64,000 bases of DNA, taken from positions 199,173-263,172 of IMG/VR virus record IMGVR_UViG_3300045988_160394; one strand, given 5' to 3'. The notes beneath the pieces were generated by a model, which searched no databases, had not been told where the DNA came from, and saw only the letters and a program-made list of their open reading frames with translations. Position numbers and translations under genes: made by a program. Of this stretch, positions 39,228 to 58,877 are shown in pieces. This DNA is from a virus. The stretch's first letter is position 1; each line of letters starts with the position of its first letter.

Positions 39228-42200
39228 CTATCTACTAAATCCACCTCTTCTACCAAAACCTCCAGAACGAGAACCTCAACCACTACTCCTTCCACCAAAT
39301 CTATTAGACATAGCTTTAGCTGATCTATAATCCATATCAACCTCTACTCATGTTTGTCTATCTCCAGGTAAATCATCTCAATCATTATTAGCATAAAAAT
39401 CAGATATTCTAGAGTCTGTATTAATTCTATTAACAGAAGTAGCATACATTCCTGCTCCACCCATTTGTTTATTAGATATATGGAAGTCTGAAGTAGTTTT
39501 TATATCTTCAACGACACCTGTTAGTTCTTTAAATTCCATAACCATTGCTAAGTGAGCTAAACCTAAAGCGTCGACAAAGTGTTCGTTTTCTGATGTATAT
39601 TGAGGTATACCTGCTTTAGACATTTGAACAACTTCGTAATCTGTTAATTGTTTAGCTAATACATCGTCGTAAGGAGATAATATAATTCTATCTCTTTCAA
39701 AAGCTATTTGTAGTTGGTTAACCATAAATGGTTTAAAAGGTTTGCTATCTAATTCTTTAGTTATAGGGTCCATTATTTGAAGCTTAGTAGAAAAGTTACA
39801 CTTCTTAACTTTAGCTTTTAATCCTGTTTGTGGATTTTCATCACCTATGATATGCAAGCGTTCTATTTGATATTCTCCTGCTCCTGCATCACAATATATT
39901 CAGCTAGGATTATATAGAGCATTTAATTCAACTATTAAATTAACAGCTGCATCATAAGAATATTCACTTCTAGGAACTTCTACTCTTTTTAATACTTTAA
40001 ATTTATTAAAGTTTACATCATAATCTAATATTAAAATAGAAGATGAAGCTCCATATTTATCTCAGTCAACCCCCATAGTTCTAAAAACATTTCTAGGAGG
40101 AGGATTTGTTCTGTCATACAATTCCATGAAGGGGTATAATCCTGTTTCTTGTAGTTTTTCTTTTTGGAAATAATCTAATTCATTATAAGCATAATTATAA
40201 AACTTTTGAGCAGCATCTAATTTATTCTTATCAAATACCCCTGTTTCTTGTGTACCGAACTCAGCTAAAACTTCATGCACATAACCTTCAGCTGTTAATT
40301 GAGCTTTAAGTTCTGCTTCCATTTGAGCATTCCAGTTAGGGTTATGTGTAGATGGATGATAATGTTGAGAATATCCCATACTCTTATCTGTACACATTTG
40401 ATAGAACTTACTACGTTTACCTAAAGGTGTAGATGAAACTGTTATACCTATTTCAGGTCTCTCTATAGCAACAGCAGCAACAACTTCGAAACAATATTCA
40501 CTCATGAAGTCAACCTCATCTATGAATATCCAGTCTGCTTTTTGTCCTCTTATAGAAGCTGCATCATCACCAGTAGTAAATCCTAGTATCATAGATCCGT
40601 TAGCAAATTCTATTTTTGCAGGGTTCTTTGTAGAAGCAACTACTGTTTGTTTTAATAATGGAGATTCTGCTATTAACTCATTTAATCTTGTAAACATGTT
40701 TCTGATTTGGTTTTCATATGGAGCAGCCATAAGTATTCTAAAGTTCTTATTACTACTAGCCATATATAACATCTCAACTACCATTGTTTCAGTATTATGA
40801 GTTATAAAGTCTTCTGCTACAAAGTTCATTGTTAATGGTATAGATAAATTATATGTTTGCATCTCTCCTAAGGATTGTATTGAAACTATTTCATCAAAGA
40901 TAAATTCACCATCTGCAAAAGCTTTTAAATCTTCATTATCTAATACATTAGCGAATTCTTTTAATCTACTCCTTTGGATATCATAATTCATTCTTAATCT
41001 AACATTAGGATTTGTTTTACACAAATCAGCTTTAGATAATCCTTGTTTAATTCTATCTTCTTCTACGAATTCTAATATCTCTTTTGGTAGATAAGTATCG
41101 TATTTATTATTTATTAAAGCTAATTCATAAGCTTCTTTCATAACTTTCTCTTTAGAGAAAATACCAATCTCTTTATAGAACTTAATAACGTTTATAGAAT
41201 CTGTTATTAAAAGCTGATAACAAACTTTAATTGTTCCATTATATTTATTTTTCTTAGTTACAACATAGCTATTAATTCCAAACTTTAATAATAAATGTTG
41301 TATATCAGAAATAAGTTCTCTTGATACAGAACTATATCCTATTTGTTGTTTATTATTTCTAGCATATGCTCAACCATCTGTAGCGTATAATCTAGATAAG
41401 AATAAAGCTGTATCGTTTTTACTTAATTTAAATATATCTTTAGGAACGAATTTAGTATGAGATGTTTTCCCAAACAATTCGTGCTTTTCTAAAATCTCTT
41501 TAATATTGTTAGGATAGATTCTATTATTCCTGTTATGTTTTTTTACAATATTATAATCTATGTTTCTATTGCTTTTATATTGTACTAATTCACAGTCAAA
41601 ATAGTTAACTGCTCTTTCTAATTCACTTCTTATCTCTTCAGAAGCTGTACAGAATCTAATAGCCTTTGTAGAGCAATTACCGTCACCAATCATGTAAGCT
41701 AATAGTTTTATTTCATTTTCGCTCATGTAGTGATTACCGAAATATCCTAAGTTACCAGCTAATGCTACTCTATCTCCTGGTTTTAAGAAATCTATTGCTT
41801 GTCATCCTTTAGCAGTAAATAATGGGTGATTTCCCGTAGCATCTATGTGCCTACCTGACTTTGTAGTAACTCTAAAGACTTCTTTAATTCCGTTATCTGT
41901 TATTTCATTAGTAAAGTGAGGACTCATCTTATAATCATCTGTCATAGTTACAAAATGAGCTCGACCTTGTTTATATAACTCTTCTGCTGTTACTCTTTCT
42001 CCTGTTTTAGGATTAAATACTCTAGTATGACCAGGGATACATTTCCCTATACGTCTTCCACATCTATATACTTTTCTAACACTTTTGTCTCTTAACATTT
42101 CAACTTGATATCATCTAGCTGTTCAAGGCACGTATTCTTTTTTTCTAGGATCGAAAGTTTTTAAAAAAGCTTGAGACCATAATATAGGGTCATCCATAAT

Positions 42201-46878: not shown

Positions 46879-47283
46879 ATGAAGAAATCAAACAATTATA
46901 GACATGAGTTAGAGAGGTTAAAACCATTTAATAACTTCATAGTAGAAGGTAAGGTAGAGTGTATTAGTAGTAAGTTCACTGATAGTTTCTCAGGAGGATA
47001 TAAGACTAAGACTATGTTATTAACTAATGTAGGAATAGCATTAAGATCTAAGAAAGATAAGAAACTACACATAGTTATGAGAATAGATCACATATGGATA
47101 GCAGAGGATACTAATACAATACCTAGAGATAAAAATACAAAAATAGGAGATATAGTTAAGTTCAGAGGTAAAGTATATGAGTATAAATATAGTCATGGAG
47201 GTATACAATTAGGCATTAAACAGAGCATGAAAGGACATGTGAATGTAACCAAAGGAATAAGCTATAAAATATTGTATAAATAA
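46879..47283 (+). CDS. Hypothetical early protein (134 aa)
   Basis: ATG lies after AGGAGG. TAA stop. Followed by the AT-rich 9-bp hairpin CCTATATAT-(9 nt)-ATATATAGG at ca 47295-47321. Confidence 0.6.
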   Translation: MKKSNNYRHELERLKPFNNFIVEGKVECISSKFTDSFSGGYKTKTMLLTNVGIALRSKKDKKLHIVMRIDHIWIAEDTNTIPRDKNTKIGDIVKFRGKVYEYKYSHGGIQLGIKQSMKGHVNVTKGISYKILYK

Positions 47284-47404
47284 TATAGATTATGCCTATA
47301 TATGCATTACGTATATATAGGTATAAATGTGTATTATTCATACACTATGCACAGAGTATGTGGCATTATGGTCAACGAACCGCCCGCTCAATGGAGGTGC
47401 AATT

Positions 47405-51744: not shown

Positions 51745-52908
51745 ATGAAAAAGATAGCAATAGAAATAATGGAAAGACAATTACAAGAAAGAAAGGAAGC
51801 TGCAACTAGTATTATAAACAACACAATAGAAGCATTAAAAGTATTAGGACAAGAAGAGTTATTATCTTCAAATGTAGTAGAAGTAGAGAAAGAAAAAATA
51901 GTAGAAGTTAAAGTTCCAGTTGAAGTAGATAAGAGTGAATTAGAAGCTTTAAAAGTAAAAAATGCAGAAGCTGAAGCTATTATCAAATCATTAAAGAAAG
52001 AATTAGCTAATGAAAAGAGAAAGGCTACTAACAGTAACAAGAGAGTAGATAAATTAAAAGAACAAGTTTCTGAATTAAAATCAGATGTTAAAGGTTTATC
52101 TAAGATAGCTGATAAAAATAAAGAGCTTGTAGAAGAGAATAAATACTTAAAAGATATGATTACAAAATTAGAAGCTAAATTAAACATGAAAACAAATGCT
52201 GAATTTAAAGTACCAGTGAAGAATAAAGAAACAGTTAAGAAGCAAACTCCTGTTCAAATTAATAGCGATTTGAAAATTTATTCAAACAATAACATAAGTA
52301 TATTAGCTCAATATAAAAATGTTATATTTGAAGCTTCTAAAAGAATGGATGCAATAACCATATATGATCCAAGTATGTACGGTATGAAAGAAGAAATAAA
52401 AGCTGCACTAGAATCAGCTAAATTATTTACTCAAGCTAGAGATGTAAAAGACCATGACAGAATAGAAACTGAAATAGGTTCATGTCATGCTATATCTAAG
52501 ACTAAGTATATGGGATTCGTTATGGATAACGGTAAAGCTATTTGTTATGTATACGAACCAAGTAAATATGATACAGCTAAAGCTATTTTAATAAACAAAA
52601 GATTAAATAACACTAGTATTAAATATGAACCAGCTACAGAATCTCAACAAGCTCTTATTAACAATTTAGTAGCTCAACATGTAGCTGCTAATAATAAGAG
52701 AATGGAGCAACTTTCTCAAGATGCATATACTGGTTTAGGGTTAGATTTCTTAGATGGAAATAATAATCAACAAACAGTTAGTAATAGTGCTCCTAGTGTT
52801 AGCTTAAACTTTACAAAACAACCTGAACAAACTGCACCTTCAACTAATAGTCCTGAAGAGGATATGATGGCTGAATTTGCTAGAATGTTAGATGGTTTAA
52901 ATGCATAA
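51745..52908 (+). CDS. Hypothetical protein (387 aa) with N-terminal coiled coil
   Basis: Intact ORF with RBS GAGGT. Heptad-rich residues 1-150. TAA stop. Confidence 0.65.
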   Translation: MKKIAIEIMERQLQERKEAATSIINNTIEALKVLGQEELLSSNVVEVEKEKIVEVKVPVEVDKSELEALKVKNAEAEAIIKSLKKELANEKRKATNSNKRVDKLKEQVSELKSDVKGLSKIADKNKELVEENKYLKDMITKLEAKLNMKTNAEFKVPVKNKETVKKQTPVQINSDLKIYSNNNISILAQYKNVIFEASKRMDAITIYDPSMYGMKEEIKAALESAKLFTQARDVKDHDRIETEIGSCHAISKTKYMGFVMDNGKAICYVYEPSKYDTAKAILINKRLNNTSIKYEPATESQQALINNLVAQHVAANNKRMEQLSQDAYTGLGLDFLDGNNNQQTVSNSAPSVSLNFTKQPEQTAPSTNSPEEDMMAEFARMLDGLNA

Positions 52909-53205
52909 GCGTTACCTTTCCCCTGCGGGGGTAGTTTCTCACGTTAAGCCCTACGGGTTTGAGTTAAAAGTAACTACCTTCGGTTATCGAGAAATTAGAA
53001 ATATTTCTTTCTATGACAAGTTAGCTCCGCTTCGCTACGCTAACTGTTAGAAAGAAGAAAACTCGCTTCGCTCGTAAGAAATAGAGCGTTTTGTGAGTAT
53101 TCGTGAGAAGAGTGCTTCTCTTTGGTGGGTAAAACCACCAACGGTTGTACTTAGCTCTACGAGTGCCATAAGAAATCATAAAAGAAATAGTACTTCTTTT
53201 TGATT
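52909..53205 (+). ncRNA. Unclassified GC-rich structured RNA island (about 300 nt, at least 6 hairpins, several UNCG tetraloops)
   Basis: Noncoding in all frames and far more GC-rich than its flanks. Hairpins and helices read directly:
- CCCC-UGCG-GGGG;
- GGUAGUU...AACUACC enclosing CUCA[..AAGCCC-UAC-GGGUUU..]UGAG;
- C-UUCG-G;
- a 16-bp bipartite helix UUCUUUCUA..AGUUAGC-(13 nt)-GCUAACU..UAGAAAGAA (53005-53056);
- CGCUC-(10 nt)-GAGCG;
- GAGAAG-AGUG-CUUCUC;
- GGUGG-GUAAAA-CCACC.
The stable loops are UNCG only on the plus strand. Confidence 0.6.
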
Positions 53206-53247
53206 ATAAACTAAATCAATTATATTAAATTAAAGGAGGTATTCACA

Positions 53248-53730
53248 ATGAATACAAATACAACTATCAAGAAAAGAATATTTACTATGGCTATGAGAGG
53301 CAACACTGCTATCTTAACAGACAGTAGTAATCCTCAATCTACTATCTCATTTAAAGGAGAAAACTTATCTATTATTGGCTTACAACTATTAAATAAGCTA
53401 TTAGAAAGTATGCCAACTCAAAGATTAAACTATAAAGTAGCAGTATTATTACCACATACTGTAGTTATTCCTACATTCGAAAATACTAGAAATGCATGGA
53501 TTGCTAATGGTAAAACTAAGACTGGTAATGATATAGAACCTGCTAAGCTTCATGAAGTTATTAGACTTAATGAGCTATTAAGAGTTAAAGGTCATAACGT
53601 AGAAATCTTTGACCAAAGCAAACTAACTAGTGTAATGTATAAATCATTTACTAGAAAGACATGGGAGCTTATGGATAAGATAGTACCAAAAGCAGAGGCA
53701 GAAGATTGCAATGCATTTATGGTTCAATAA
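53248..53730 (+). CDS. Hypothetical early protein (160 aa), distant paralog of 55406..56248
   Basis: Intact ORF with RBS AAAGGAGG. Shared block ANGKTKTGNDIEPAKLHEVIRLNELL vs RTGKTKSGTQLTGQEMQAFKDVYKMI. Confidence 0.6.
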   Translation: MNTNTTIKKRIFTMAMRGNTAILTDSSNPQSTISFKGENLSIIGLQLLNKLLESMPTQRLNYKVAVLLPHTVVIPTFENTRNAWIANGKTKTGNDIEPAKLHEVIRLNELLRVKGHNVEIFDQSKLTSVMYKSFTRKTWELMDKIVPKAEAEDCNAFMVQ

Positions 53731-53760
53731 TATTATTATGAGTCAGTGAAATATCTGGCT

Positions 53761-53821
53761 CTTTCTGTCGTGGAAGATACAGTCCACCTGATGATGGCTA
53801 TTAGGTAGCCGAAACAGAAAT
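53761..53821 (+). ncRNA. Hammerhead ribozyme, type III (open stem III)
   Basis: Layout: UUUCUGU-C^ (stem III 5' strand, GUC triplet, cleavage after C53769); GUGGA-AGAUACAG-UCCAC (stem I); CUGAUGA; extra U; GGCUA-UUAGG-UAGCC (stem II); GAAA; CAGAAA (stem III 3' strand). All invariant core nucleotides are present. Confidence 0.85.
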
Positions 53822-53846
53822 ATTATTACATTATGAGGTGATTGAT

Positions 53847-54269
53847 ATGAAAATATTTATACCAGCTTACGAAGGAATATCTGGATTATATACTGTAGAA
53901 GAAATAAGAGAAGGAGAAAACTTCTATTATGATAATGGATCTATGGTAAACATATATGACAACTATTTTATTGTTATCAATAACAATGGAATAATCGAGT
54001 ACGAAAGTGATGAAGGATTATACAGCATATTTGTTATGTGTTCTGATGAAGAAATAAAATTCTTAGAACAATTTACAGATATAGGATCTAAAAAGATTTT
54101 AGAGAGAATGTTAGAGCGTAGAATGTATTACGCTAATCTTAAAAAATCTGTAGATGGTAAAACATGTCCTGTATGTGGAAAGAAACTATCCGAATCTAAT
54201 ATAGATGCTGGAATAAGAAATCTATTCTGCAATAATTGTAAGCATAGTGAAACTATTTGCATAGATTAG
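53847..54269 (+). CDS. Hypothetical early protein (140 aa) with C-terminal zinc ribbon
   Basis: ATG lies after GAGGTGATTGAT. Motif CPVCGKKL...FCNNCKH. The G of the TAG stop is the first nt of the next ribozyme. Confidence 0.6.
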   Translation: MKIFIPAYEGISGLYTVEEIREGENFYYDNGSMVNIYDNYFIVINNNGIIEYESDEGLYSIFVMCSDEEIKFLEQFTDIGSKKILERMLERRMYYANLKKSVDGKTCPVCGKKLSESNIDAGIRNLFCNNCKHSETICID

Positions 54270-54329
54270 TCGAAACGGTAGAAATACCGTCGTACAGGGA
54301 TGGCTTCCTGTGCCTGATGATGACAAGCC
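54269..54329 (+). ncRNA. Hammerhead ribozyme, type II (open stem II) with loop I pseudoknot
   Basis: Layout: GUC-GAAA; ACGGUA-GAAA-UACCGU (stem III with GNRA loop); C^ (cleavage after C54291); GUACAGG-GAUGGCUU-CCUGUGC (stem I); CUGAUGA; extra U; GAC (pairs with the 5' GUC); AAGCC, which is complementary to GGCUU in loop I. Confidence 0.8.
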
Positions 54330-54363
54330 AAACTATATTTGAATTTAAAGGAGATTGATTGAT

Positions 54364-54921
54364 ATGAAAACAAAATTCACATTAAAAGGATTAGAAATAG
54401 GAAACATTAAGATAGGAGATATCGTTGTTGAAGGCGAATACTTTGTTAAAGAGGCATGGGGTATGAAAAACCTAATTAAAGGAACAGTTGAAGATTTGTT
54501 ACACAACATGCCAAAATATCTTGATCAAGTATCTACAATAAACAACAAGTACGAAGAACTATCTAGAAAAGAATTCTTAAAGAAAGTAGACCATATTCGT
54601 ACTAGAATTAATGGAGCTAAAACTATAGAAGAATTAGATAGTATCTGTAAATGCTATTACGAAATATGTCCATTTAGTATGCATAGTGAAATAGATGCTC
54701 TTCATAACCAAAGATATCATGAGTTAAGAAGATATTCTGATGATGAAATTAAAGAGCTAAAAAAAGAAATAGAGTCTTCAGGTACAATTACAGGTATTGC
54801 AAGACTTATCAATATTGTTAAGAGTGAAGTTATTCCTGATAAATATAGAGACGAATTGTTAGCTATGGTTGACAGGAAACACTCAGAAATATTATTTAAA
54901 TATACAACAAGTATGAATTAG
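54364..54921 (+). CDS. Hypothetical early protein (185 aa)
   Basis: ATG lies after AAAGGAGATTGATTGAT. The TAG stop overlaps the start of the next ribozyme. Confidence 0.6.
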   Translation: MKTKFTLKGLEIGNIKIGDIVVEGEYFVKEAWGMKNLIKGTVEDLLHNMPKYLDQVSTINNKYEELSRKEFLKKVDHIRTRINGAKTIEELDSICKCYYEICPFSMHSEIDALHNQRYHELRRYSDDEIKELKKEIESSGTITGIARLINIVKSEVIPDKYRDELLAMVDRKHSEILFKYTTSMN

Positions 54922-54986
54922 TCGAAACGGTATAGAAATATGCCGTCGTGTAGAGATAGCCTACTACACCTGATGATGACAGGCTA
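54921..54986 (+). ncRNA. Hammerhead ribozyme, type II with loop I pseudoknot (second copy)
   Basis: Layout: GUC-GAAA; ACGGUAUA-GAAA-UAUGCCGU (stem III, 2 bp longer than copy 1); C^ (cleavage after C54947); GUGUAG-AGAUAGCCUA-CUACAC (stem I); CUGAUGA; extra U; GAC; AGGCUA, which is complementary to UAGCCU in loop I. Stems I and III and the pseudoknot all covary relative to 54269..54329. Confidence 0.8.
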
Positions 54987-55019
54987 AATAATATTTTAAT
55001 TTAAAGGAGATTGATTAAT

Positions 55020-55280
55020 ATGACAAATTGGAAAATTACAAAAATAACAACAGGAGTAGCAACTGAAGAAGAGGTAAAAGGATGGGAAGAAATAGAAAAT
55101 GATGACATCTGTCCTGTATGTGGATCAAAAATGATTGATGATGAAGAAGAACAATTATTACAACATACTGAATGTCCTATATGTGGTTACTTTGAAAACA
55201 TCTACGGTAATGCTATAGATTTCTATGGTAAAGAATGTTTCGAAGAAAAGAAAAAAGAAATAGGTCTTTTAAATGAATAA
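55020..55280 (+). CDS. Hypothetical early zinc-ribbon protein (86 aa)
   Basis: ATG lies after AAAGGAGATTGATTAAT. Motif CPVCGSKM...ECPICGY. TAA stop. Confidence 0.6.
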   Translation: MTNWKITKITTGVATEEEVKGWEEIENDDICPVCGSKMIDDEEEQLLQHTECPICGYFENIYGNAIDFYGKECFEEKKKEIGLLNE

Positions 55281-55297
55281 TTAGGGAGTTCTCTCCC

Positions 55298-55356
55298 TTC
55301 TTCTAATGTAGCCAATGACGGTCACAAGCCCGTATAAGAAATACAGAGTGGAAGAA
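55298..55356 (+). ncRNA. Twister ribozyme (P1-type arrangement)
   Basis: Sequence: UUCUUC U^AA UGUA GCCAAUG ACGG UCACAAGC CCGU AUAAGAAA UACA GA GUG GAAGAA. Pairings: P1 UUCUUC/GAAGAA, P2 UGUA/UACA, P4 ACGG/CCGU, pseudoknot CAC/GUG. Conserved blocks UAA, GCCAAUG, UC.CAAGC and AUAA match the rice twister as I remember it (..CUAACACUGCCAAUGCCGGUCCCAAGCCCGGAUAAAAGUGGAGGGGG..), with compensatory changes in every helix. Predicted cleavage between U55304 and A55305. Preceded by hairpin AGGGAG-UUCU-CUCCCU. Confidence 0.85.
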
Positions 55357-55405
55357 AATAATATTATGGGTTAAGCTTCCCTAAAAAGCATAGGAGGAAA
55401 CAATT

Positions 55406-56248
55406 ATGAAAAATGTAGTATTAGTATTCAAAGGAAATCACGCTTTAGCATTAGACAATGCTGGAACAGTTATTAAGAAGACTTCAACTGGTAGCTTTTT
55501 AGCTAACTTAGAAACTTTAGCAGAAGTTCTTAACACTATCCCTGTAGGAGATGTAGCTCCAGAAGTTACAACTATTCATATCCCTGACTTTATTCAAGGT
55601 ATAGCTTCAGGTACAGCTTTAGATTATATTAGAACTGGTAAGACTAAATCTGGTACACAATTAACTGGTCAAGAAATGCAAGCTTTTAAAGATGTGTATA
55701 AGATGATAGCAGAAAGAATCTATAACGTTAGATTAAGCTTAGCTAAGTTCATACCAAAGACTAATACAGAGTTAATAGCTTTAAGAACAAACGCTTATAA
55801 TGCTTTAACTAATTATGTTGCAAGTACTGGTGGAATGGTAATGGGAGGAATGGCTCCAGCTTCACAAGTAATTGACCCTGATAAAGCTTTAAGAGAAGCA
55901 TTAGATGCTCAAATCATAGAAGCTATTAATAAGGGAGATATGGATAAGATAATGCAATTAAAAGCTATGAGAGATACATTAAAGCAACCAACTATGGTTC
56001 AAGGTACTGCTCCTGTAGCTCAACCAACTAATAGTTATGTGCCTACACCAAACTTTGGAATGGAAAGCACTACAGCTCCAACAGAAAATAATACTGCTGT
56101 TGCACAAGATAGTAATAACCAACCAATAGCTACACCTGAAGAAACTCAACAACAAGCTCAAGCTCCAGTAGAAAATGCAGGTACTGATGTTAGTTTCACT
56201 AATACAACTACAACTGATGCAAGTAACATCAACTGGGCTAATGTTTAA
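55406..56248 (+). CDS. Hypothetical early protein (280 aa), Q/T/P/A-rich C-terminal half
   Basis: Intact ORF with RBS AGGAGG and TAA stop. Confidence 0.65.
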   Translation: MKNVVLVFKGNHALALDNAGTVIKKTSTGSFLANLETLAEVLNTIPVGDVAPEVTTIHIPDFIQGIASGTALDYIRTGKTKSGTQLTGQEMQAFKDVYKMIAERIYNVRLSLAKFIPKTNTELIALRTNAYNALTNYVASTGGMVMGGMAPASQVIDPDKALREALDAQIIEAINKGDMDKIMQLKAMRDTLKQPTMVQGTAPVAQPTNSYVPTPNFGMESTTAPTENNTAVAQDSNNQPIATPEETQQQAQAPVENAGTDVSFTNTTTTDASNINWANV

Positions 56249-56261
56249 TTAATAGCTAATA

Positions 56262-56294
56262 AAGCCTCTATTAATATAGGGGCTTCTTTATATT
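56262..56294 (+). terminator. Rho-independent-type terminator
   Basis: AAGCCUCU-(8 nt)-AGGGGCUU followed by CUUUAUAUU. Confidence 0.55.
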
Positions 56295-56335
56295 ATCAAA
56301 AATAAAATTATAAGAAGAAAAAGGAGACGATTGAA

Positions 56336-57097
56336 ATGAAAATTATAAAAGGATCACAAAAAATGTTAGAGGAATTACAAGCAAACTTATTTAATATGTT
56401 ATCAGAAGAAGGACATGAATTAAACGGAAGTGAAGCAGACGGATATGCATTAAAGATAGACGAGGAAGTATTTAATGATAACCAAAGAAGAATAATTGAA
56501 GTAGCTATGAAAGCTAGAATAAACGCAGGAGTATTAGATCCATCAGCTTATACAATAGATGAAGAATTAGTTAAGAATAGTTTCTCATTAATAGCTGACT
56601 CTCAAGAAAAGATGGAAATAATCCAAACAGATATATTAAGAGGAGCTAAGATACCAGAAGAAAATATAGTAATATTATTACAACCATGGGCTCCAGAAAT
56701 GTATAGTACATTCTCATACTTAGTAATAGCATTTGGTTTAAGTAACGATCAAATGAAGGCAGTACAATTATCAGCTAAAGCAGCTAAGACTGGATTAAAG
56801 ATAACACAAGCTACTAAGAAAGCAGCTATGATAGCAGGTTCTACTGGTAATGTTGTAAACAGAGTAGGTAGAGAAGTAACTTTAGCTGGTGTTGAAATAG
56901 GAGCTACTATTGGTGCAGGTATGGTTAAGACTGGTATAGAAGCAGCTGCATGTGCTGTTAATATAGGCATTAGAGATCTTAATCCTAGAGAGTTAGCTAA
57001 AGGAGAAAATGTACAAAGATTAGGTAAAACAATTAAAAGTTTATTTAAGAAGAACGGTGAATCACAACAAATAACTAATGGATTTGCTGCTCTATAG
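56336..57097 (+). CDS. Hypothetical protein (253 aa) with Gly/Ala-rich hydrophobic C-terminal region
   Basis: Intact ORF with RBS AAAGGAG and TAG stop. Confidence 0.65.
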   Translation: MKIIKGSQKMLEELQANLFNMLSEEGHELNGSEADGYALKIDEEVFNDNQRRIIEVAMKARINAGVLDPSAYTIDEELVKNSFSLIADSQEKMEIIQTDILRGAKIPEENIVILLQPWAPEMYSTFSYLVIAFGLSNDQMKAVQLSAKAAKTGLKITQATKKAAMIAGSTGNVVNRVGREVTLAGVEIGATIGAGMVKTGIEAAACAVNIGIRDLNPRELAKGENVQRLGKTIKSLFKKNGESQQITNGFAAL

Positions 57098-57105
57098 TTT
57101 ACATA

Positions 57106-57131
57106 AGAGAGTCTATATGGCTCTCTTTTTA
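57106..57131 (+). terminator. Rho-independent terminator
   Basis: AGAGAGUC-UAUAU-GGCUCUCU followed by UUUUU. Confidence 0.65.
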
Positions 57132-57161
57132 TTATTATTAATATAAGGGAGATTGATTGAT

Positions 57162-57308
57162 ATGGATAGAATAATTAATAGCAGATTAACGCTTATAAAG
57201 AAAATAGATAAGGCATGGGATGATAAACGTGACTTATATGGAGTTAAATATGATGTAGATAAAGGTTATATCGCCTATAGAAATGCAATAATGAATCTAT
57301 TATATTAG
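57162..57308 (+). CDS. Small hypothetical protein (48 aa)
   Basis: Below the track cutoff. ATG lies after AAGGGAGATTGATTGAT, the same initiation module as the ribozyme-flanked genes. TAG stop. Confidence 0.45.
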   Translation: MDRIINSRLTLIKKIDKAWDDKRDLYGVKYDVDKGYIAYRNAIMNLLY

Positions 57309-57515
57309 GTGATATATGTGATTAATATAGATATAAAATCTAAGAATAGAAAAGAATTAATTAAAGCATATAAAAGAGCTTTACATATGATAAAAGAGTA
57401 TGAATATGGTCTTAATAGCTTAACAGCTAAAGAAATAGATACAATAAATGATATAAAGAAACAAATAAGAGATGAAATAGCTATAAAAGATTGTATAAAT
57501 AAAGGTGCTTATTAA
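57309..57515 (+). CDS. Small hypothetical protein (68 aa)
   Basis: Track ORF with a GTG start abutting the previous stop (TAGGTG). TAA stop. Confidence 0.4.
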   Translation: MIYVINIDIKSKNRKELIKAYKRALHMIKEYEYGLNSLTAKEIDTINDIKKQIRDEIAIKDCINKGAY

Positions 57516-57561
57516 TAGAATTGTTATTTGAAAATTATATATTTGAGAGGAGATTAATAAT

Positions 57562-57720
57562 ATGAGTAAAGAAGCATTACAATTAGTTAATAGAATAGCA
57601 GGATTAAAGGATGATTTTGTTATAGACAAGATAATATGTGCAGCAATAGAACAAGGTTTAGATGTTAGTCCTGAAGCTGGTATAGAAGAAGATATGGATG
57701 AGATAGTATTAGAGTTATAG
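57562..57720 (+). CDS. Small hypothetical acidic protein (52 aa)
   Basis: Below the track cutoff. ATG lies after GAGAGGAGATTAATAAT. TAG stop. Confidence 0.45.
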   Translation: MSKEALQLVNRIAGLKDDFVIDKIICAAIEQGLDVSPEAGIEEDMDEIVLEL

Positions 57721-58075
57721 AGTATATATAAGGGAGGGGCGTAAGCCCCGACCGATTTAAAAAGTATTTATATCTACGAGCTAATATATATATTGCGAGC
57801 GTCAGCGAGCAACCATATAACATTATATATTATTACTCAGAAATAGAAATATCTTTTAGAAATATAACTATTTTTGCTTATATTTTTATCTACTTATTGT
57901 GATATGAAGTTTATTACAACTAAACTTTTACGAAAAAAGTGTTTAACTTTTACGTACTTTTGTTTGGTATTACTAAACTTTTACCCTTTTTCTGCTTTTT
58001 TAGTTACCCTCGTTTTAAATAATATTATTGAAATTTATTATTTTGTCGAGGAGGAACTACCCCCGCCCGTATGTT
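57721..58075 (+). other. Noncoding region: two GC-rich structured ends flanking an AT-rich core with direct repeats
   Basis: Left end: GGGGC-GUAA-GCCCC (GNRA hairpin) and GCGAGC-GUCA-GCGAGC. Right end: UAGUUACCCUCG-(34 nt)-CGAGGAGGAACUA hairpin, then CCCCCGCCCG. Track ORF 57874..58077 has no RBS and is low-complexity. Confidence 0.5.
57919..57985 (+). repeat. Three direct repeats (A/G)(C/T)T(A/T)AACTTTTAC(G/C) in the AT-rich noncoding core
   Basis: ACTAAACTTTTACG (57919-57932), GTTTAACTTTTACG (57941-57954) and ACTAAACTTTTACC (57972-57985), spaced 22 and 31 nt start to start. Confidence 0.6.
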
Positions 58076-58271
58076 AAAGTCATATATGGAAATAAGGATG
58101 AAAGTTCCGTTTTGAAGAAATGAGCTATATCAAGGGATAAGAAGGCACTTTTCAGCATAAATACTATAAAAACCGCTATTTTAGGTATAAATGTCTAATA
58201 AGTAAATAAAACAAAAACAAATATAATTACATACGTATATCTATGTATATACACATAAGGAGGTAAATAAA

Positions 58272-58877
58272 ATGATTGAAAACCTATATTATGAATGTCA
58301 ATATTGGGTTAAAGTAAGAAAAGAGAAATTAAAGATATTTAAATGGATATTATCAAGTCAACATGGTTTAGATTATAGAGCAAAGAGATTAGATGAAAAA
58401 GATTTATTCTTGTGTAGAAATGTACAAAGTGATGAAAATAAAGTAGAAATATTGATAATAAGTGCATGGATAAGAGTAGACAGAGAATATTTAGAAGTAA
58501 TTAAACCAGAAGGTAAAGCATACATAACATATGTATTAAAGAACTTTAAAGATAGTATAAAGTTAAACCATTATTATGAGATAGTAGCAGAAGGTACTAA
58601 TGGATATTATATAATTGATGAAGATGGAGATCTAATATATTATGATAGTGATTGTTTAACCATAATAAAAGATGATAAAAGTAATGAGTATAAGTTAATA
58701 GACATAATAAAGAAGAATATATCTGATATAGAGTTTAGTACAATAGATAATAATAATAAGTTTATGTTAGATAAAGATAATAGATTAATAATATACTTAC
58801 CAGAAGAGATAAGTAGTAAATGTAATAAGAAGAGATTAGTAATAGATTTAAATAGTATATGTGTAATAGATAAATAA
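58272..58877 (+). CDS. Hypothetical protein (201 aa)
   Basis: Intact ORF with RBS AAGGAGG and TAA stop. Confidence 0.6.
   Translation: MIENLYYECQYWVKVRKEKLKIFKWILSSQHGLDYRAKRLDEKDLFLCRNVQSDENKVEILIISAWIRVDREYLEVIKPEGKAYITYVLKNFKDSIKLNHYYEIVAEGTNGYYIIDEDGDLIYYDSDCLTIIKDDKSNEYKLIDIIKKNISDIEFSTIDNNNKFMLDKDNRLIIYLPEEISSKCNKKRLVIDLNSICVIDK

What the first reader, a model, noticed from the sequence alone, without database searches (positions are those of the whole stretch)
55298..55356. Twister ribozyme in the next spacer: a second ribozyme class in the same gene array
The spacer after 55020..55280 has the twister architecture, with every conserved single-stranded block in place: U^AA, GCCAAUG, UC-N-CAAGC, AUAA, GA.

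All helices are compensated relative to the rice twister as I recall it: P1 UUCUUC/GAAGAA, P2 UGUA/UACA, P4 ACGG/CCGU, pseudoknot CAC/GUG instead of CCC/GGG.

Twister and hammerhead ribozymes are known to co-occur in ribozyme-rich loci. Here they occupy equivalent positions between consecutive small genes.
Basis: partly seen in the sequence, partly recalled or inferred. Interest (0 to 1): 0.75.

Follow-up and report, generated by a model that had tools for sequence, protein, structure and literature searches.

The report
Twister ribozyme between jumbo-phage genes
The 59-base spacer element is a genuine twister self-cleaving RNA, the last of four ribozymes sitting between consecutive small genes of a ~263-kb phage, an arrangement already known from other phages and most likely used to cut a long messenger RNA into single-gene pieces.

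Summary
The observation and the interpretation both hold. Window 55298-55356 (+) is a complete type-P1 twister ribozyme without the optional P3 stem. Every conserved block, P1, P2, P4 and both pseudoknots are present. Rfam twister-P1 scores it 49.1 bits (E = 6.8e-8 for the window). That is below the curated cut-off of 67.2, but 13 other P3-less phage twisters also score only 33-61 bits. A model built from 85 independent phage twisters scores it 70.9 bits (E about 1e-17).

Across 91 such sequences P2, P4, P1 and the middle pair of pseudoknot T1 covary. Relatives whose downstream protein is 77% and 57% identical keep the 46-nt core unchanged, with a compensated C-G to U-A change in P1.

The window is part of a ~263-kb tailed phage. 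The three spacers upstream hold one type III and two type II hammerheads. In two relatives a type II hammerhead replaces the twister before the same gene, and the small genes between ribozymes differ between strains.

The best reading is intercistronic self-cleavage at U55304/A55305 of a polycistronic phage mRNA. This is a new member of a known kind. Its function is inferred, not shown.

The parts
55284..55297 (+). G+C-rich hairpin GGGAG-UUCU-CUCCC directly abutting the 5' strand of P1. It probably corresponds to the optional twister stem P0. After cleavage it would be the 3'-terminal hairpin of the upstream RNA.
   Evidence: Sequence. The centroid fold of 55278-55410 shows the hairpin plus the twister. 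The hairpin is kept in L161 and L163. 54 of 86 phage twisters have such a hairpin ending within 10 nt of the cleavage site, against 7-8 of 86 at control offsets, with a peak at 4-6 nt. P0 is listed as an optional stem in PMC5408937 and PMC6154101; its position was not verifiable from the text.
55298..55303 (+). P1, 5' strand UUCUUC (pairs with 55351-55356).
   Evidence: L161 has a C-G to U-A compensated change at the innermost pair, and L163 has a G-U there.
55304..55306 (+). U^AA: predicted scissile bond between U55304 and A55305.
   Evidence: Aligned to the invariant UAA of Rfam RF03160 and of 91 phage twisters. The U-A cleavage dinucleotide adjoining P1 is described in PMC5408937.
55307..55310 (+). 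P2, 5' strand UGUA (pairs with 55342-55345 UACA).
   Evidence: P2 is 99% paired across 91 sequences, and all 4 pairs show changes on both sides.
55311..55317 (+). L2 junction GCCAAUG that replaces stem P3. G55311-C55312 form the 5' half of pseudoknot T2.
   Evidence: A conserved GC in L2 forms T2, and P3 is replaced by a short junction in about 20% of twisters (PMC5408937).
55318..55333 (+). P4 hairpin ACGG / CCGU with loop L4 UCACAAGC. C55323-A55324-C55325 form the 5' half of T1, and G55328-C55329 the 3' half of T2.
   Evidence: The outer P4 pair covaries (AU 39, GC 34, CG 10). The L4 residues are invariant apart from the T1 middle base.
55334..55341 (+). Linker AUAAGAAA containing the conserved UAA/AAA adenines.
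55342..55345 (+). P2, 3' strand UACA.
55346..55350 (+). GAGUG. G55348-U55349-G55350 form the 3' half of pseudoknot T1.
   Evidence: The middle T1 pair covaries across 91 sequences (AU 78, UA 5, CG 4, GC 2, 2 unpaired).
55351..55356 (+). P1, 3' strand GAAGAA.
55020..55280 (+). Upstream gene: 86-aa zinc-ribbon-like protein (CPVCG...CPICG). Its stop codon lies 17 nt before P1.
   Evidence: only weak zinc-ribbon hits. The gene is called in L156. Gene plus twister are absent from L162.
55392..56248 (+). Downstream gene: Shine-Dalgarno AGGAGG at 55392-55397, ATG at 55406, 280-aa protein of unknown function. Its start lies 49 nt after the ribozyme.
   Evidence: There are 17 homologues, all from metagenomes. 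The N-terminal ~150 aa gives weak RNase H-like fold matches.
53762..53820 (+). Type III hammerhead, predicted cleavage after C53769. It is preceded by hairpin 53740-53761.
   Evidence: Read directly from the sequence: stem III 7 bp, stem I GUGGA/UCCAC, CUGAUGA, stem II GGCUA/UAGCC, GAAA. It is the descriptor hit, with 0 hits in 200 simulations. Stem II has a compensated G-C to A-U change in L161 and L162. Rfam does not report it.
54267..54334 (+). Type II hammerhead, predicted cleavage after C54291. It has a loop I / 3'-tail pseudoknot GGCU/AGCC, and the UAG stop of the upstream gene lies inside it.
   Evidence: Rfam RF02276 at 40.4 bits against a cut-off of 37, E = 9e-5. Also found by the descriptor.
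54919..54990 (+). Type II hammerhead, predicted cleavage after C54947, with pseudoknot UAGCCU/AGGCUA.
   Evidence: Sequence, alignment with five relatives and the descriptor. Rfam does not report it even at E <= 10.

Best explanation
Window 55298-55356 encodes a type-P1 twister self-cleaving ribozyme with a P0-like hairpin and without P3 and P5. It lies on the coding strand of a co-directional block of genes of unknown function in a ~263-kb tailed phage.

When the block is transcribed as one RNA, the ribozyme folds into P1-P2-P4 locked by pseudoknots T1 and T2. It then cuts its own backbone between U55304 and A55305.

This frees the upstream 86-aa gene as an RNA that ends in the hairpin 55284-55297, then UUCUUCU with a 2',3'-cyclic phosphate. 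It frees the downstream 280-aa gene as an RNA that begins with a 5'-hydroxyl, the compact ribozyme body, 35 nt of leader and its Shine-Dalgarno sequence.

Together with the three hammerheads in the preceding spacers, it chops a polycistronic phage transcript into single-gene mRNAs, so that the stability and translation of each are uncoupled from its neighbours.

Shown here: identity, fold, conservation, position and interchangeability with a hammerhead. Inferred: that cleavage happens in vivo, that the genes are co-transcribed, and what cleavage does to expression.
For: Identity:
- Rfam twister-P1 matches full length at 49.1 bits, E = 6.8e-8.
- An independent model built from 85 phage twisters scores it 70.9 bits, E about 9e-18.
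- All 19 pairs of P1, P2, P4, T1 and T2 form in the window sequence.
- Across 91 sequences 89% of cells are paired, against 21-44% when partners are slid. P2, outer P4, P1 and the middle T1 pair covary.

Selection:
- The core is identical in L161 and L163, whose downstream proteins are 77% and 57% identical, while the flanking spacer has diverged.
- P1 carries a compensated change in L161.

Position:
- The ribozyme is on the same strand as all flanking genes, 17 nt after a stop codon and 49 nt before the next start. That leaves no room for a separate promoter between ribozyme and Shine-Dalgarno sequence, so the 3' cleavage product would be the mRNA of the 280-aa gene.
- In general, 48 of 78 phage twisters have a Shine-Dalgarno sequence plus start codon within 300 nt downstream on the same strand, against 3 of 78 on the opposite strand. 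The medians are 28 nt after a stop codon and 32 nt before a start codon.

Class-independent role:
- Upstream of the orthologous gene, L162 and L164 carry a type II hammerhead instead of the twister.
- Three hammerheads occupy the three preceding spacers.
- All four ribozymes would leave a hairpin a few nt from the new 3' end and a structured new 5' end (sequence).

Literature:
- Hammerhead arrays flanking single genes in prophages cleave in vitro and were proposed to process long phage transcripts (PMC3088659).
- The same proposal has been made for twister (PMC6765202).
- An engineered twister-assisted polycistronic co-expression system has been published under that description (PMC9872166, title and abstract only).
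Against: - There is no experimental or transcript-end evidence for this locus.
- The score is below Rfam's gathering cut-off (49.1 against 67.2).
- P1 is A/U-rich, and the nested fold alone is only modestly better than shuffles (z = -2.3; z = -1.5 with flanks).
- Co-transcription is assumed. The hairpins before the twister and before the type III hammerhead resemble weak terminators, so some transcripts may never reach the ribozyme.
- For the glmS ribozyme, cleavage is followed by degradation of the mRNA by cellular RNases (PMC6765202). Cleavage could therefore lower rather than preserve expression of the downstream gene.
- The biological role of bacterial and phage twisters is unresolved in the literature (PMC6765202, PMC5408937).
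Confidence: 0.6

Rival explanations
1. The ribozymes matter mainly at the DNA level. As conserved direct repeats at the ends of small gene cassettes (leader, ORF, hairpin, ribozyme), they promote recombination that inserts, deletes and swaps accessory genes between related phages. RNA cleavage would be secondary or a hitch-hiking property of the cassette.
For: Three near-identical ~263-kb genomes differ exactly in the genes between ribozymes:
- window and L156: 140 aa, HH-II, 185 aa, HH-II, 86 aa, twister
- L155: 140 aa, HH-II, 79 aa, HH-II, 116 aa, twister
- L157: 140 aa, HH-II, 116 aa, twister

The L157 junction is a hybrid: the first hammerhead is followed by the leader that follows the second hammerhead in L155. 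L162 lacks the 86-aa gene plus twister, with the junction inside the shared AAAUAAUAUU that follows both ribozymes. The small proteins are mosaic paralogues that share N- and C-terminal segments.
Against: - Recombination needs only sequence similarity. It does not explain the preservation of every catalytic nucleotide, the compensated P1 change, the four different compensated hammerhead pseudoknots, or the replacement of one ribozyme class by another at the same site.
- The two roles are not exclusive.
Confidence: 0.15
2. Cleavage is a negative or conditional control. Read-through RNA is cut, and the 5'-OH downstream fragment is degraded (as with glmS). The twister would then act as a post-transcriptional terminator or a regulated switch for the 280-aa gene, not as a maker of stable mRNAs.
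For: - A terminator-like hairpin followed by a U-rich tract lies directly before the twister and before the type III hammerhead.
- glmS ribozyme cleavage leads to degradation of the mRNA by cellular RNases (PMC6765202).
- The nearest capsid relatives infect Firmicutes.
Against: - Only 49 nt, mostly leader and Shine-Dalgarno sequence, separate the ribozyme from the start codon. No independent promoter is evident that could express the gene if the cleaved RNA were destroyed.
- No ligand-binding extension is present. The RNA is a minimal constitutive twister.
Confidence: 0.15
3. Paired ribozymes release gene-length RNAs with 5'-OH and 2',3'-cyclic phosphate ends. An RtcB-type ligase then joins these ends into circular or spliced RNAs.
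For: Each small gene is flanked by two ribozymes that would generate ends of that chemistry (RtcB ligates 5'-OH RNA ends, PMC4787814). Perreault et al. raised this possibility for hammerhead arrays (PMC3088659).
Against: - Perreault et al. looked for such products and did not detect them (PMC3088659).
- None of the 20 window proteins scanned against Pfam and PHROGs gave a ligase hit. Most of the 263-kb genome and the host were not examined.
Confidence: 0.05
4. A chance resemblance, or a decayed and inactive twister relic.
For: It scores below Rfam's gathering score and is not reported in gathering mode. Activity has not been tested.
Against: - E = 6.8e-8 and about 1e-17.
- Every consensus position is matched.
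- The core is invariant across lineages whose flanking protein is only 57% identical, and P1 carries a compensated change.
Confidence: 0.03

Closest known systems
Type-P1 twister ribozymes lacking P3 (Rfam RF03160; the crystallised rice Osa-1-4 ribozyme, PDB 4OJI)
   Same: It has the same order of elements: P1, U^AA, P2, the GCC...G junction, P4 with the UC-N-CAAGC loop, the UAA/AAA linker, P2', GAG-N-G and P1'. It has the same two pseudoknots. P3 is replaced by a short junction, as in about 20% of twisters (PMC5408937, PMC6154101).
   Different: T1 is CAC/GUG instead of CCC/GGG, which is the majority form among the phage examples collected here. P1 and P2 are A/U-rich. A P0-like hairpin abuts P1, whereas the crystallised rice construct lacks P0 (PMC6154101). 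The source is a phage rather than a plant genome.
Phage twisters in IMG/VR contigs (for example L063, L094, L118, L151)
   Same: They share the P3-less architecture and the UCACAAGC/GAGUG pseudoknot. The L063 core differs from the window only in linker length and P1. They score similarly below the Rfam cut-off (33-61 bits). They are likewise intergenic between co-directional genes. Several can occur per locus, as in L151 with four twisters and a RAGATH-28 RNA.
   Different: The host genomes are unrelated. Neither the flanking 280-aa protein nor the region's DNA in the deposited-phage collection gave a match.
Hammerhead ribozyme arrays flanking single genes in prophages (Perreault et al. 2011, PMC3088659)
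   Same: Several ribozymes in consecutive spacers flank single, variable genes. The type II hammerheads have a loop I / 3'-tail pseudoknot. The proposed role is processing of long phage transcripts.
   Different: Here the array mixes two ribozyme classes and three topologies. It lies in a ~263-kb lytic-type tailed phage genome rather than an integrated prophage. Orthologous positions switch between twister and hammerhead.
Engineered ribozyme-assisted polycistronic expression (pRAP, PMC9872166)
   Same: [quoted passage not shown]
   Different: That system is synthetic and was read here only as title and abstract. The natural element has not been tested.

Membership tests
Twister ribozyme, type P1 | Highly conserved nucleotides of L1, L2 and L4: UAA at the cleavage site, GCC...G, CGGUC-N-CAAGCCCG, the UAA/AAA linker and GAG-N-G | tested here: met
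   Every upper-case consensus position of RF03160 is matched, apart from the compensated T1 middle pair. The same columns are invariant in 91 phage twisters.
Twister ribozyme, type P1 | [quoted passage not shown] | tested here: met
   P1 has 6 bp, P2 4 bp and P4 4 bp in the window. The MFE and centroid folds recover them. Covariation is seen in P1, P2 and outer P4 across 91 sequences. The definition is from PMC5408937.
Twister ribozyme, type P1 | Pseudoknot T1 between L4 and the 3' strand of L1 (3 Watson-Crick pairs) | tested here: met
   In the window this is CAC with GUG. The middle pair is AU 78, UA 5, CG 4 and GC 2 of 91, with 2 unpaired.
Twister ribozyme, type P1 | Pseudoknot T2 between the conserved GC of L2 and the GC of L4 | tested here: met
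   G55311-C55312 pair with G55328-C55329. The pairs are invariant in all 91 sequences, so they are present but without covariation support.
Twister ribozyme, type P1 | Score at or above Rfam's curated gathering threshold for RF03160 (an annotation cut-off, not a property of the RNA) | tested here: not met
   The score is 49.1 against 67.2 bits. The deficit comes from the deleted optional P3 columns. All 13 other P3-less phage twisters scored 33-61 bits. A P3-less model gives 70.9 bits.
Twister ribozyme, type P1 | Site-specific self-cleavage at the U-A step, giving 2',3'-cyclic phosphate and 5'-OH ends | not testable with these tools
   This needs in vitro transcription and cleavage, or end-mapping.
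Hammerhead ribozyme, type II (neighbours 54267-54334 and 54919-54990) | Core CUGANGA, GAAA and U-H at the cleavage site; closed stems I and III; open stem II; loop I / 3'-tail pseudoknot | tested here: met
   RF02276 gives 40.4 bits against a cut-off of 37 for the first copy. The second copy is not reported by Rfam but meets the structural descriptor, which gives 0 hits in 200 simulations. Four different complementary pseudoknot sequences occur among six relatives.
Hammerhead ribozyme, type III (neighbour 53762-53820) | Core CUGANGA, GAAA and U-H; closed stems I and II; open stem III | tested here: inconclusive
   All core residues and three stems are read from the sequence. It is the descriptor hit, and stem II has a compensated change in L161 and L162. 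No Rfam hammerhead model reports it at E <= 10.

The most novel reading that the evidence does not exclude
In this family of ~263-kb phages, self-cleaving ribozymes of any class may act as interchangeable end-makers of exchangeable accessory-gene cassettes. Each cassette would consist of a leader, an ORF, a 3' hairpin and a ribozyme. The same element would define the RNA ends of each gene and supply the recombination joint by which cassettes are gained, lost and swapped between strains. That would explain why unrelated ribozyme classes share gene neighbourhoods.
Probability: 0.2. Interest if true: 0.6.

Novelty: new member of a known kind. Interest (0 to 1): 0.35.

Why it matters
The twister class, its P3-less form and its habit of sitting near hammerheads in phage-like DNA are all established, so the element itself adds one more member.

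The locus is useful because the role of phage twister and hammerhead arrays is still unresolved (PMC6765202, PMC5408937). Here four ribozymes of two classes sit in four consecutive spacers, and two natural comparisons are available:
- Relatives carry a hammerhead in place of the twister before the same gene.
- Sister strains have different genes between the same ribozymes.

These comparisons make the 'generic RNA end-maker' idea directly testable.

There is also a practical point. Default Rfam annotation missed all four ribozymes in this window, so P3-less phage twisters and pseudoknot-variant hammerheads are probably under-counted in phage genomes.

Tried and rejected
- **Rfam in gathering mode:** it found nothing in the window. 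This turned out to be a threshold and filter effect, not absence.
- **Close relatives:** a blastn search of 52000-58000 against deposited phages found no match. A search of IMG/VR with the 280-aa protein also found none. Relatives were reached only through the protein database and exact-protein look-ups.
- **Flanking gene functions:** Pfam and PHROGs scans of ten flanking proteins gave no assignable function.
- **Gene context of phage twisters:** a naive longest-ORF analysis was too noisy in G+C-rich contigs, with 23 of 91 apparently inside ORFs. It was replaced by a Shine-Dalgarno-plus-start test with an opposite-strand control.
- **Phage promoter motif:** AAAUAAUAUU follows two of the ribozymes and I considered it as a promoter motif. 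It recurs too rarely and too unspecifically in this A+T-rich window to support that.
- **Long-range helix:** the MFE fold of 55278-55410 pairs 55281-55290 with 55374-55384 around the twister. The downstream partner is not complementary in L161 and L163, so I rejected it.
- **Upstream hairpin as a new feature:** it probably corresponds to the known optional stem P0 (PMC5408937, PMC6154101).
- **280-aa protein:** the structure prediction (mean pLDDT 63) gave only weak RNase H-like fold matches (TM 0.25-0.48). I do not use this for the argument.
- **Roth et al. 2014:** I tried the PMC id I recalled for this paper (PMC3867598), and no paper is held under that id.

Full report
**1. What is in the sequence**

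The + strand of 55298-55356 reads UUCUUC U^AA UGUA GCCAAUG ACGG UCACAAGC CCGU AUAAGAAA UACA GAGUG GAAGAAA minus the final A, that is, ending GAAGAA.
- P1: 55298-55303 with 55351-55356
- P2: 55307-55310 with 55342-55345
- P4: 55318-55321 with 55330-55333
- Pseudoknot T1: C55323-A-C55325 with G55348-U-G55350
- Pseudoknot T2: G55311-C55312 with G55328-C55329

The element lies in a 125-nt spacer. It starts 17 nt after the stop of an 86-aa gene (55020-55280) and ends 49 nt before the ATG of a 280-aa gene (55406-56248), on the coding strand of both.

**2. Is it more than chance?**

Rfam in gathering mode reports nothing in the window. With E-value reporting, twister-P1 (RF03160) matches 55300-55354 over the full model at 49.1 bits, E = 6.8e-8 for the whole window on both strands (6.4e-10 locally).

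The alignment shows why the curated cut-off of 67.2 is missed. The 16 columns of stem P3 are deleted, while every conserved position is matched.

P3 is an optional stem. It is absent from about a fifth of twisters, including the crystallised rice ribozyme (PMC5408937, PMC6154101).

Thirteen other P3-less twisters in phage contigs scored 33-61 bits against the same model, all below the cut-off. The threshold failure is therefore a property of the model, not of this RNA.

I then built a model from 85 independent P3-less phage twisters, excluding the window. It scores the window element at 70.9 bits, E about 9e-18 (the calibration is rough), and this is the only hit in the window.

**3. Comparative support for the fold**

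From these, 91 distinct full-length twisters including the window were aligned. The selection pattern fixed only the conserved single-stranded blocks and did not require complementarity.

On this alignment:
- The proposed 19 pairs are formed in 89% of cells, against 21-44% when the 3' partners are slid by 1-3 columns.
- All four P2 pairs show changes on both sides (99% paired).
- The outer P4 pair is AU 39, GC 34 and CG 10.
- The inner four P1 pairs take all pair types.
- The middle pair of T1 is AU 78, UA 5, CG 4 and GC 2.

The last result confirms the pseudoknot register without relying on memory. It also shows that CAC/GUG is the common phage form rather than an unusual compensation of the rice CCC/GGG.

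The window sequence forms all 19 pairs. Its nested fold is the MFE and centroid structure (-13.6 kcal/mol, z = -2.3) and persists with flanks in the centroid.

**4. Where the window comes from, and orthologous spacers**

The window encodes a tail sheath, portal, major capsid protein and large terminase. The capsid is closest to Moorella phage MTATph1 (52%) and to the 219-kb Bacillus phage 0305phi8-36 (37%).

The exact 280-aa protein is found on metagenomic contigs of 263 kb. This is therefore a jumbo tailed phage, probably of a low-G+C Firmicute (window G+C about 29%).

Homologues of the 280-aa protein exist only in metagenomes. Four graded relatives were fetched, and the gene order (616, 387, 160, variable genes, 280, 253, 48, 65, 52 aa) is conserved.

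| Locus | Identity of the 280-aa homologue | Element in the spacer before it |
|---|---|---|
| L161 | 77% | twister |
| L163 | 57% | twister |
| L162 | 66% | type II hammerhead |
| L164 | 45% | type II hammerhead |

In L161 and L163 the twister has an identical 46-nt core while the rest of the spacer has diverged. In L161 the innermost P1 pair has changed from C-G to U-A, and in L163 to U-G. In L162 and L164 the hammerhead before the orthologous gene is read from the sequence. The two ribozyme classes are therefore interchangeable at this site.

**5. The array**

The three spacers upstream of the twister also hold ribozymes.
- Rfam reports a type II hammerhead at 54268-54333 (40.4 bits against a cut-off of 37).
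- A second type II hammerhead at 54919-54990 and a type III hammerhead at 53762-53820 are not reported by Rfam even at E <= 10.
- Both unreported elements have the full core (CUGAUGA, GAAA, GUC) and all stems.

A descriptor requiring the core plus paired stems finds exactly these three sites, all on the + strand. It found none in 200 simulated 64-kb sequences.

Among six related type II copies the loop I / 3'-tail pseudoknot takes four different complementary sequences: GGCU/AGCC, UAGCCU/AGGCUA, UUGGUCU/AGACCAA and UAGUC/GACUA. Perreault et al. showed that this tertiary contact is needed for fast cleavage (PMC3088659). Stem II of the type III copy has a compensated G-C to A-U change in L161 and L162.

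The small genes between ribozymes differ between nearly identical genomes:

| Genome | Order of elements (the 280-aa gene follows the twister in each) |
|---|---|
| Window and L156 | 140 aa, HH-II, 185 aa, HH-II, 86 aa, twister |
| L155 | 140 aa, HH-II, 79 aa, HH-II, 116 aa, twister |
| L157 | 140 aa, HH-II, 116 aa, twister |

The junctions fall at the 3' edge of a ribozyme. L162 lacks the unit made of the 86-aa gene and the twister. The small proteins are mosaic paralogues with a shared MxNWKITK N-terminus and a zinc-ribbon-like C-terminus.

**6. The hairpin before P1**

GGGAG-UUCU-CUCCC (55284-55297) abuts P1 and is kept in L161 and L163. Among the phage twisters, 54 of 86 have a hairpin of at least 5 bp and at least 3 G-C pairs ending within 10 nt of the cleavage site. 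At control offsets the figure is 7-8 of 86. The distance peaks sharply at 4-6 nt.

The twister literature lists an optional stem P0, present in 21% of annotated twisters (PMC5408937, PMC6154101). This hairpin most probably is P0, although the texts I could read do not state where P0 lies.

**7. How it most likely works**

The chemistry is that of the class: attack of the 2'-OH of U55304 on the adjacent phosphate, giving a 2',3'-cyclic phosphate and a 5'-OH on A55305 (PMC5408937).

The role is inferred from position.
- The ribozyme is co-directional with its neighbours.
- It is too close to the next Shine-Dalgarno sequence for a separate promoter to fit. The 3' product would therefore be the mRNA of the 280-aa gene.
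- In 78 phage twisters, a Shine-Dalgarno sequence plus start codon lies within 300 nt downstream on the same strand in 48 cases, against 3 on the opposite strand.
- All four ribozymes of the array would leave a hairpin near the new 3' end and a folded 5' end.
- Class swapping shows that what is selected is a cut at this place, not a twister as such.

This matches the proposal that phage hammerhead arrays process long transcripts into single-gene mRNAs (PMC3088659, PMC6765202). It also matches engineered ribozyme-assisted polycistronic expression (PMC9872166).

I put 0.6 on this. The main rivals are a DNA-level role as cassette recombination joints (0.15, and not exclusive of the main reading), negative control through degradation of the 5'-OH product (0.15), RNA circularisation (0.05), and a chance or dead element (0.03).

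**8. Comparison with what is known, and verdict**

All defining sequence and structure features of a type-P1 twister that can be tested in silico are met. Only the Rfam annotation cut-off is not met, for an understood reason. Catalysis is untested.

Twister, its P3-less form, optional P0, its association with hammerheads and ribozyme arrays around single phage genes are all published. This is therefore a new member of a known kind.

Three things go modestly beyond the literature I could read:
- a mixed four-ribozyme array in a jumbo phage
- natural twister/hammerhead replacement at an orthologous site
- strain-level cassette turnover bounded by ribozymes

Interest: 0.35.

Noticed in passing
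window 52909-53247 (+); counterparts L163 3035-3345 and L164 2987-3321: The 339-nt spacer just upstream of the ribozyme array folds far better than shuffles (-107 kcal/mol, z = -6.3). It forms a row of G+C hairpins with UUCG/UACG-type loops separated by AAGAAA/GAAAUA motifs. The same layout appears in distant relatives. There is no Rfam match. It could be a structured non-coding RNA or a regulatory leader.
   Followed up: partly
window 53762-53820 and 54919-54990 (+): Two hammerheads (type III and type II) with complete cores and stems are invisible to Rfam even at E <= 10. A third, at 54268-54333, exceeds its gathering score but is lost by the default filters in gathering mode. Default annotation would report no ribozyme at all in this window.
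   Followed up: yes
window 53838-55280 compared with L155 8677-9875, L157 9018-9875 and L162 3325-3885: The small zinc-ribbon-like genes between the ribozymes are swapped, fused or missing between otherwise near-identical ~263-kb genomes. Breakpoints lie at the 3' edges of ribozymes.
   Followed up: partly
IMG/VR loci L001-L154: 63% of P3-less phage twisters carry a G+C-rich hairpin ending 4-6 nt before the cleavage site. That is about three times the 21% quoted for optional stem P0 across all twisters (PMC6154101).
   Followed up: partly
window 54267-54270 and 54919-54922: In both type II hammerheads the UAG stop codon of the upstream gene is part of the ribozyme (UAG UCGAAAC), so its AG belongs to the 5' strand of stem II. 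A terminating ribosome would cover part of the ribozyme, which hints at coupling between translation and cleavage.
   Followed up: no
window 57720-58272 (+): This is a stretch of about 550 nt without a convincing gene. It contains a G+C hairpin (GGGAGGGGCGUAAGCCCCGACC, about 57733-57754) and three copies of AACTTTTAC within 60 nt (about 57920-57985).
   Followed up: no
window 40062-41141 (-): The large-terminase ORF combines a Terminase_6N match with a weak intein-splicing-domain match at its N-terminus (E = 6e-6, below the cut-off). This suggests an intein-interrupted or split terminase gene.
   Followed up: no
window 47272-47347 (+): A long, nearly perfect A+U-rich hairpin lies between two + strand genes. 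It was picked up as a weak mir-1277 look-alike (31 bits, E = 0.077). It is more likely a terminator or regulatory hairpin than a microRNA.
   Followed up: no
window 55406-56248 (+): This is the 280-aa protein whose gene is always preceded by a ribozyme. Its N-terminal ~150 residues are predicted with moderate confidence and give weak RNase H-like fold matches (TM 0.25-0.48, E about 1e-4). Its C-terminal 90 residues are predicted with very low confidence (pLDDT below 50) and look disordered.
   Followed up: partly
L151 (IMG/VR contig 14 kb locus): One phage locus carries four twisters and a RAGATH-28 RNA within 9 kb. It is another dense ribozyme array.
   Followed up: no
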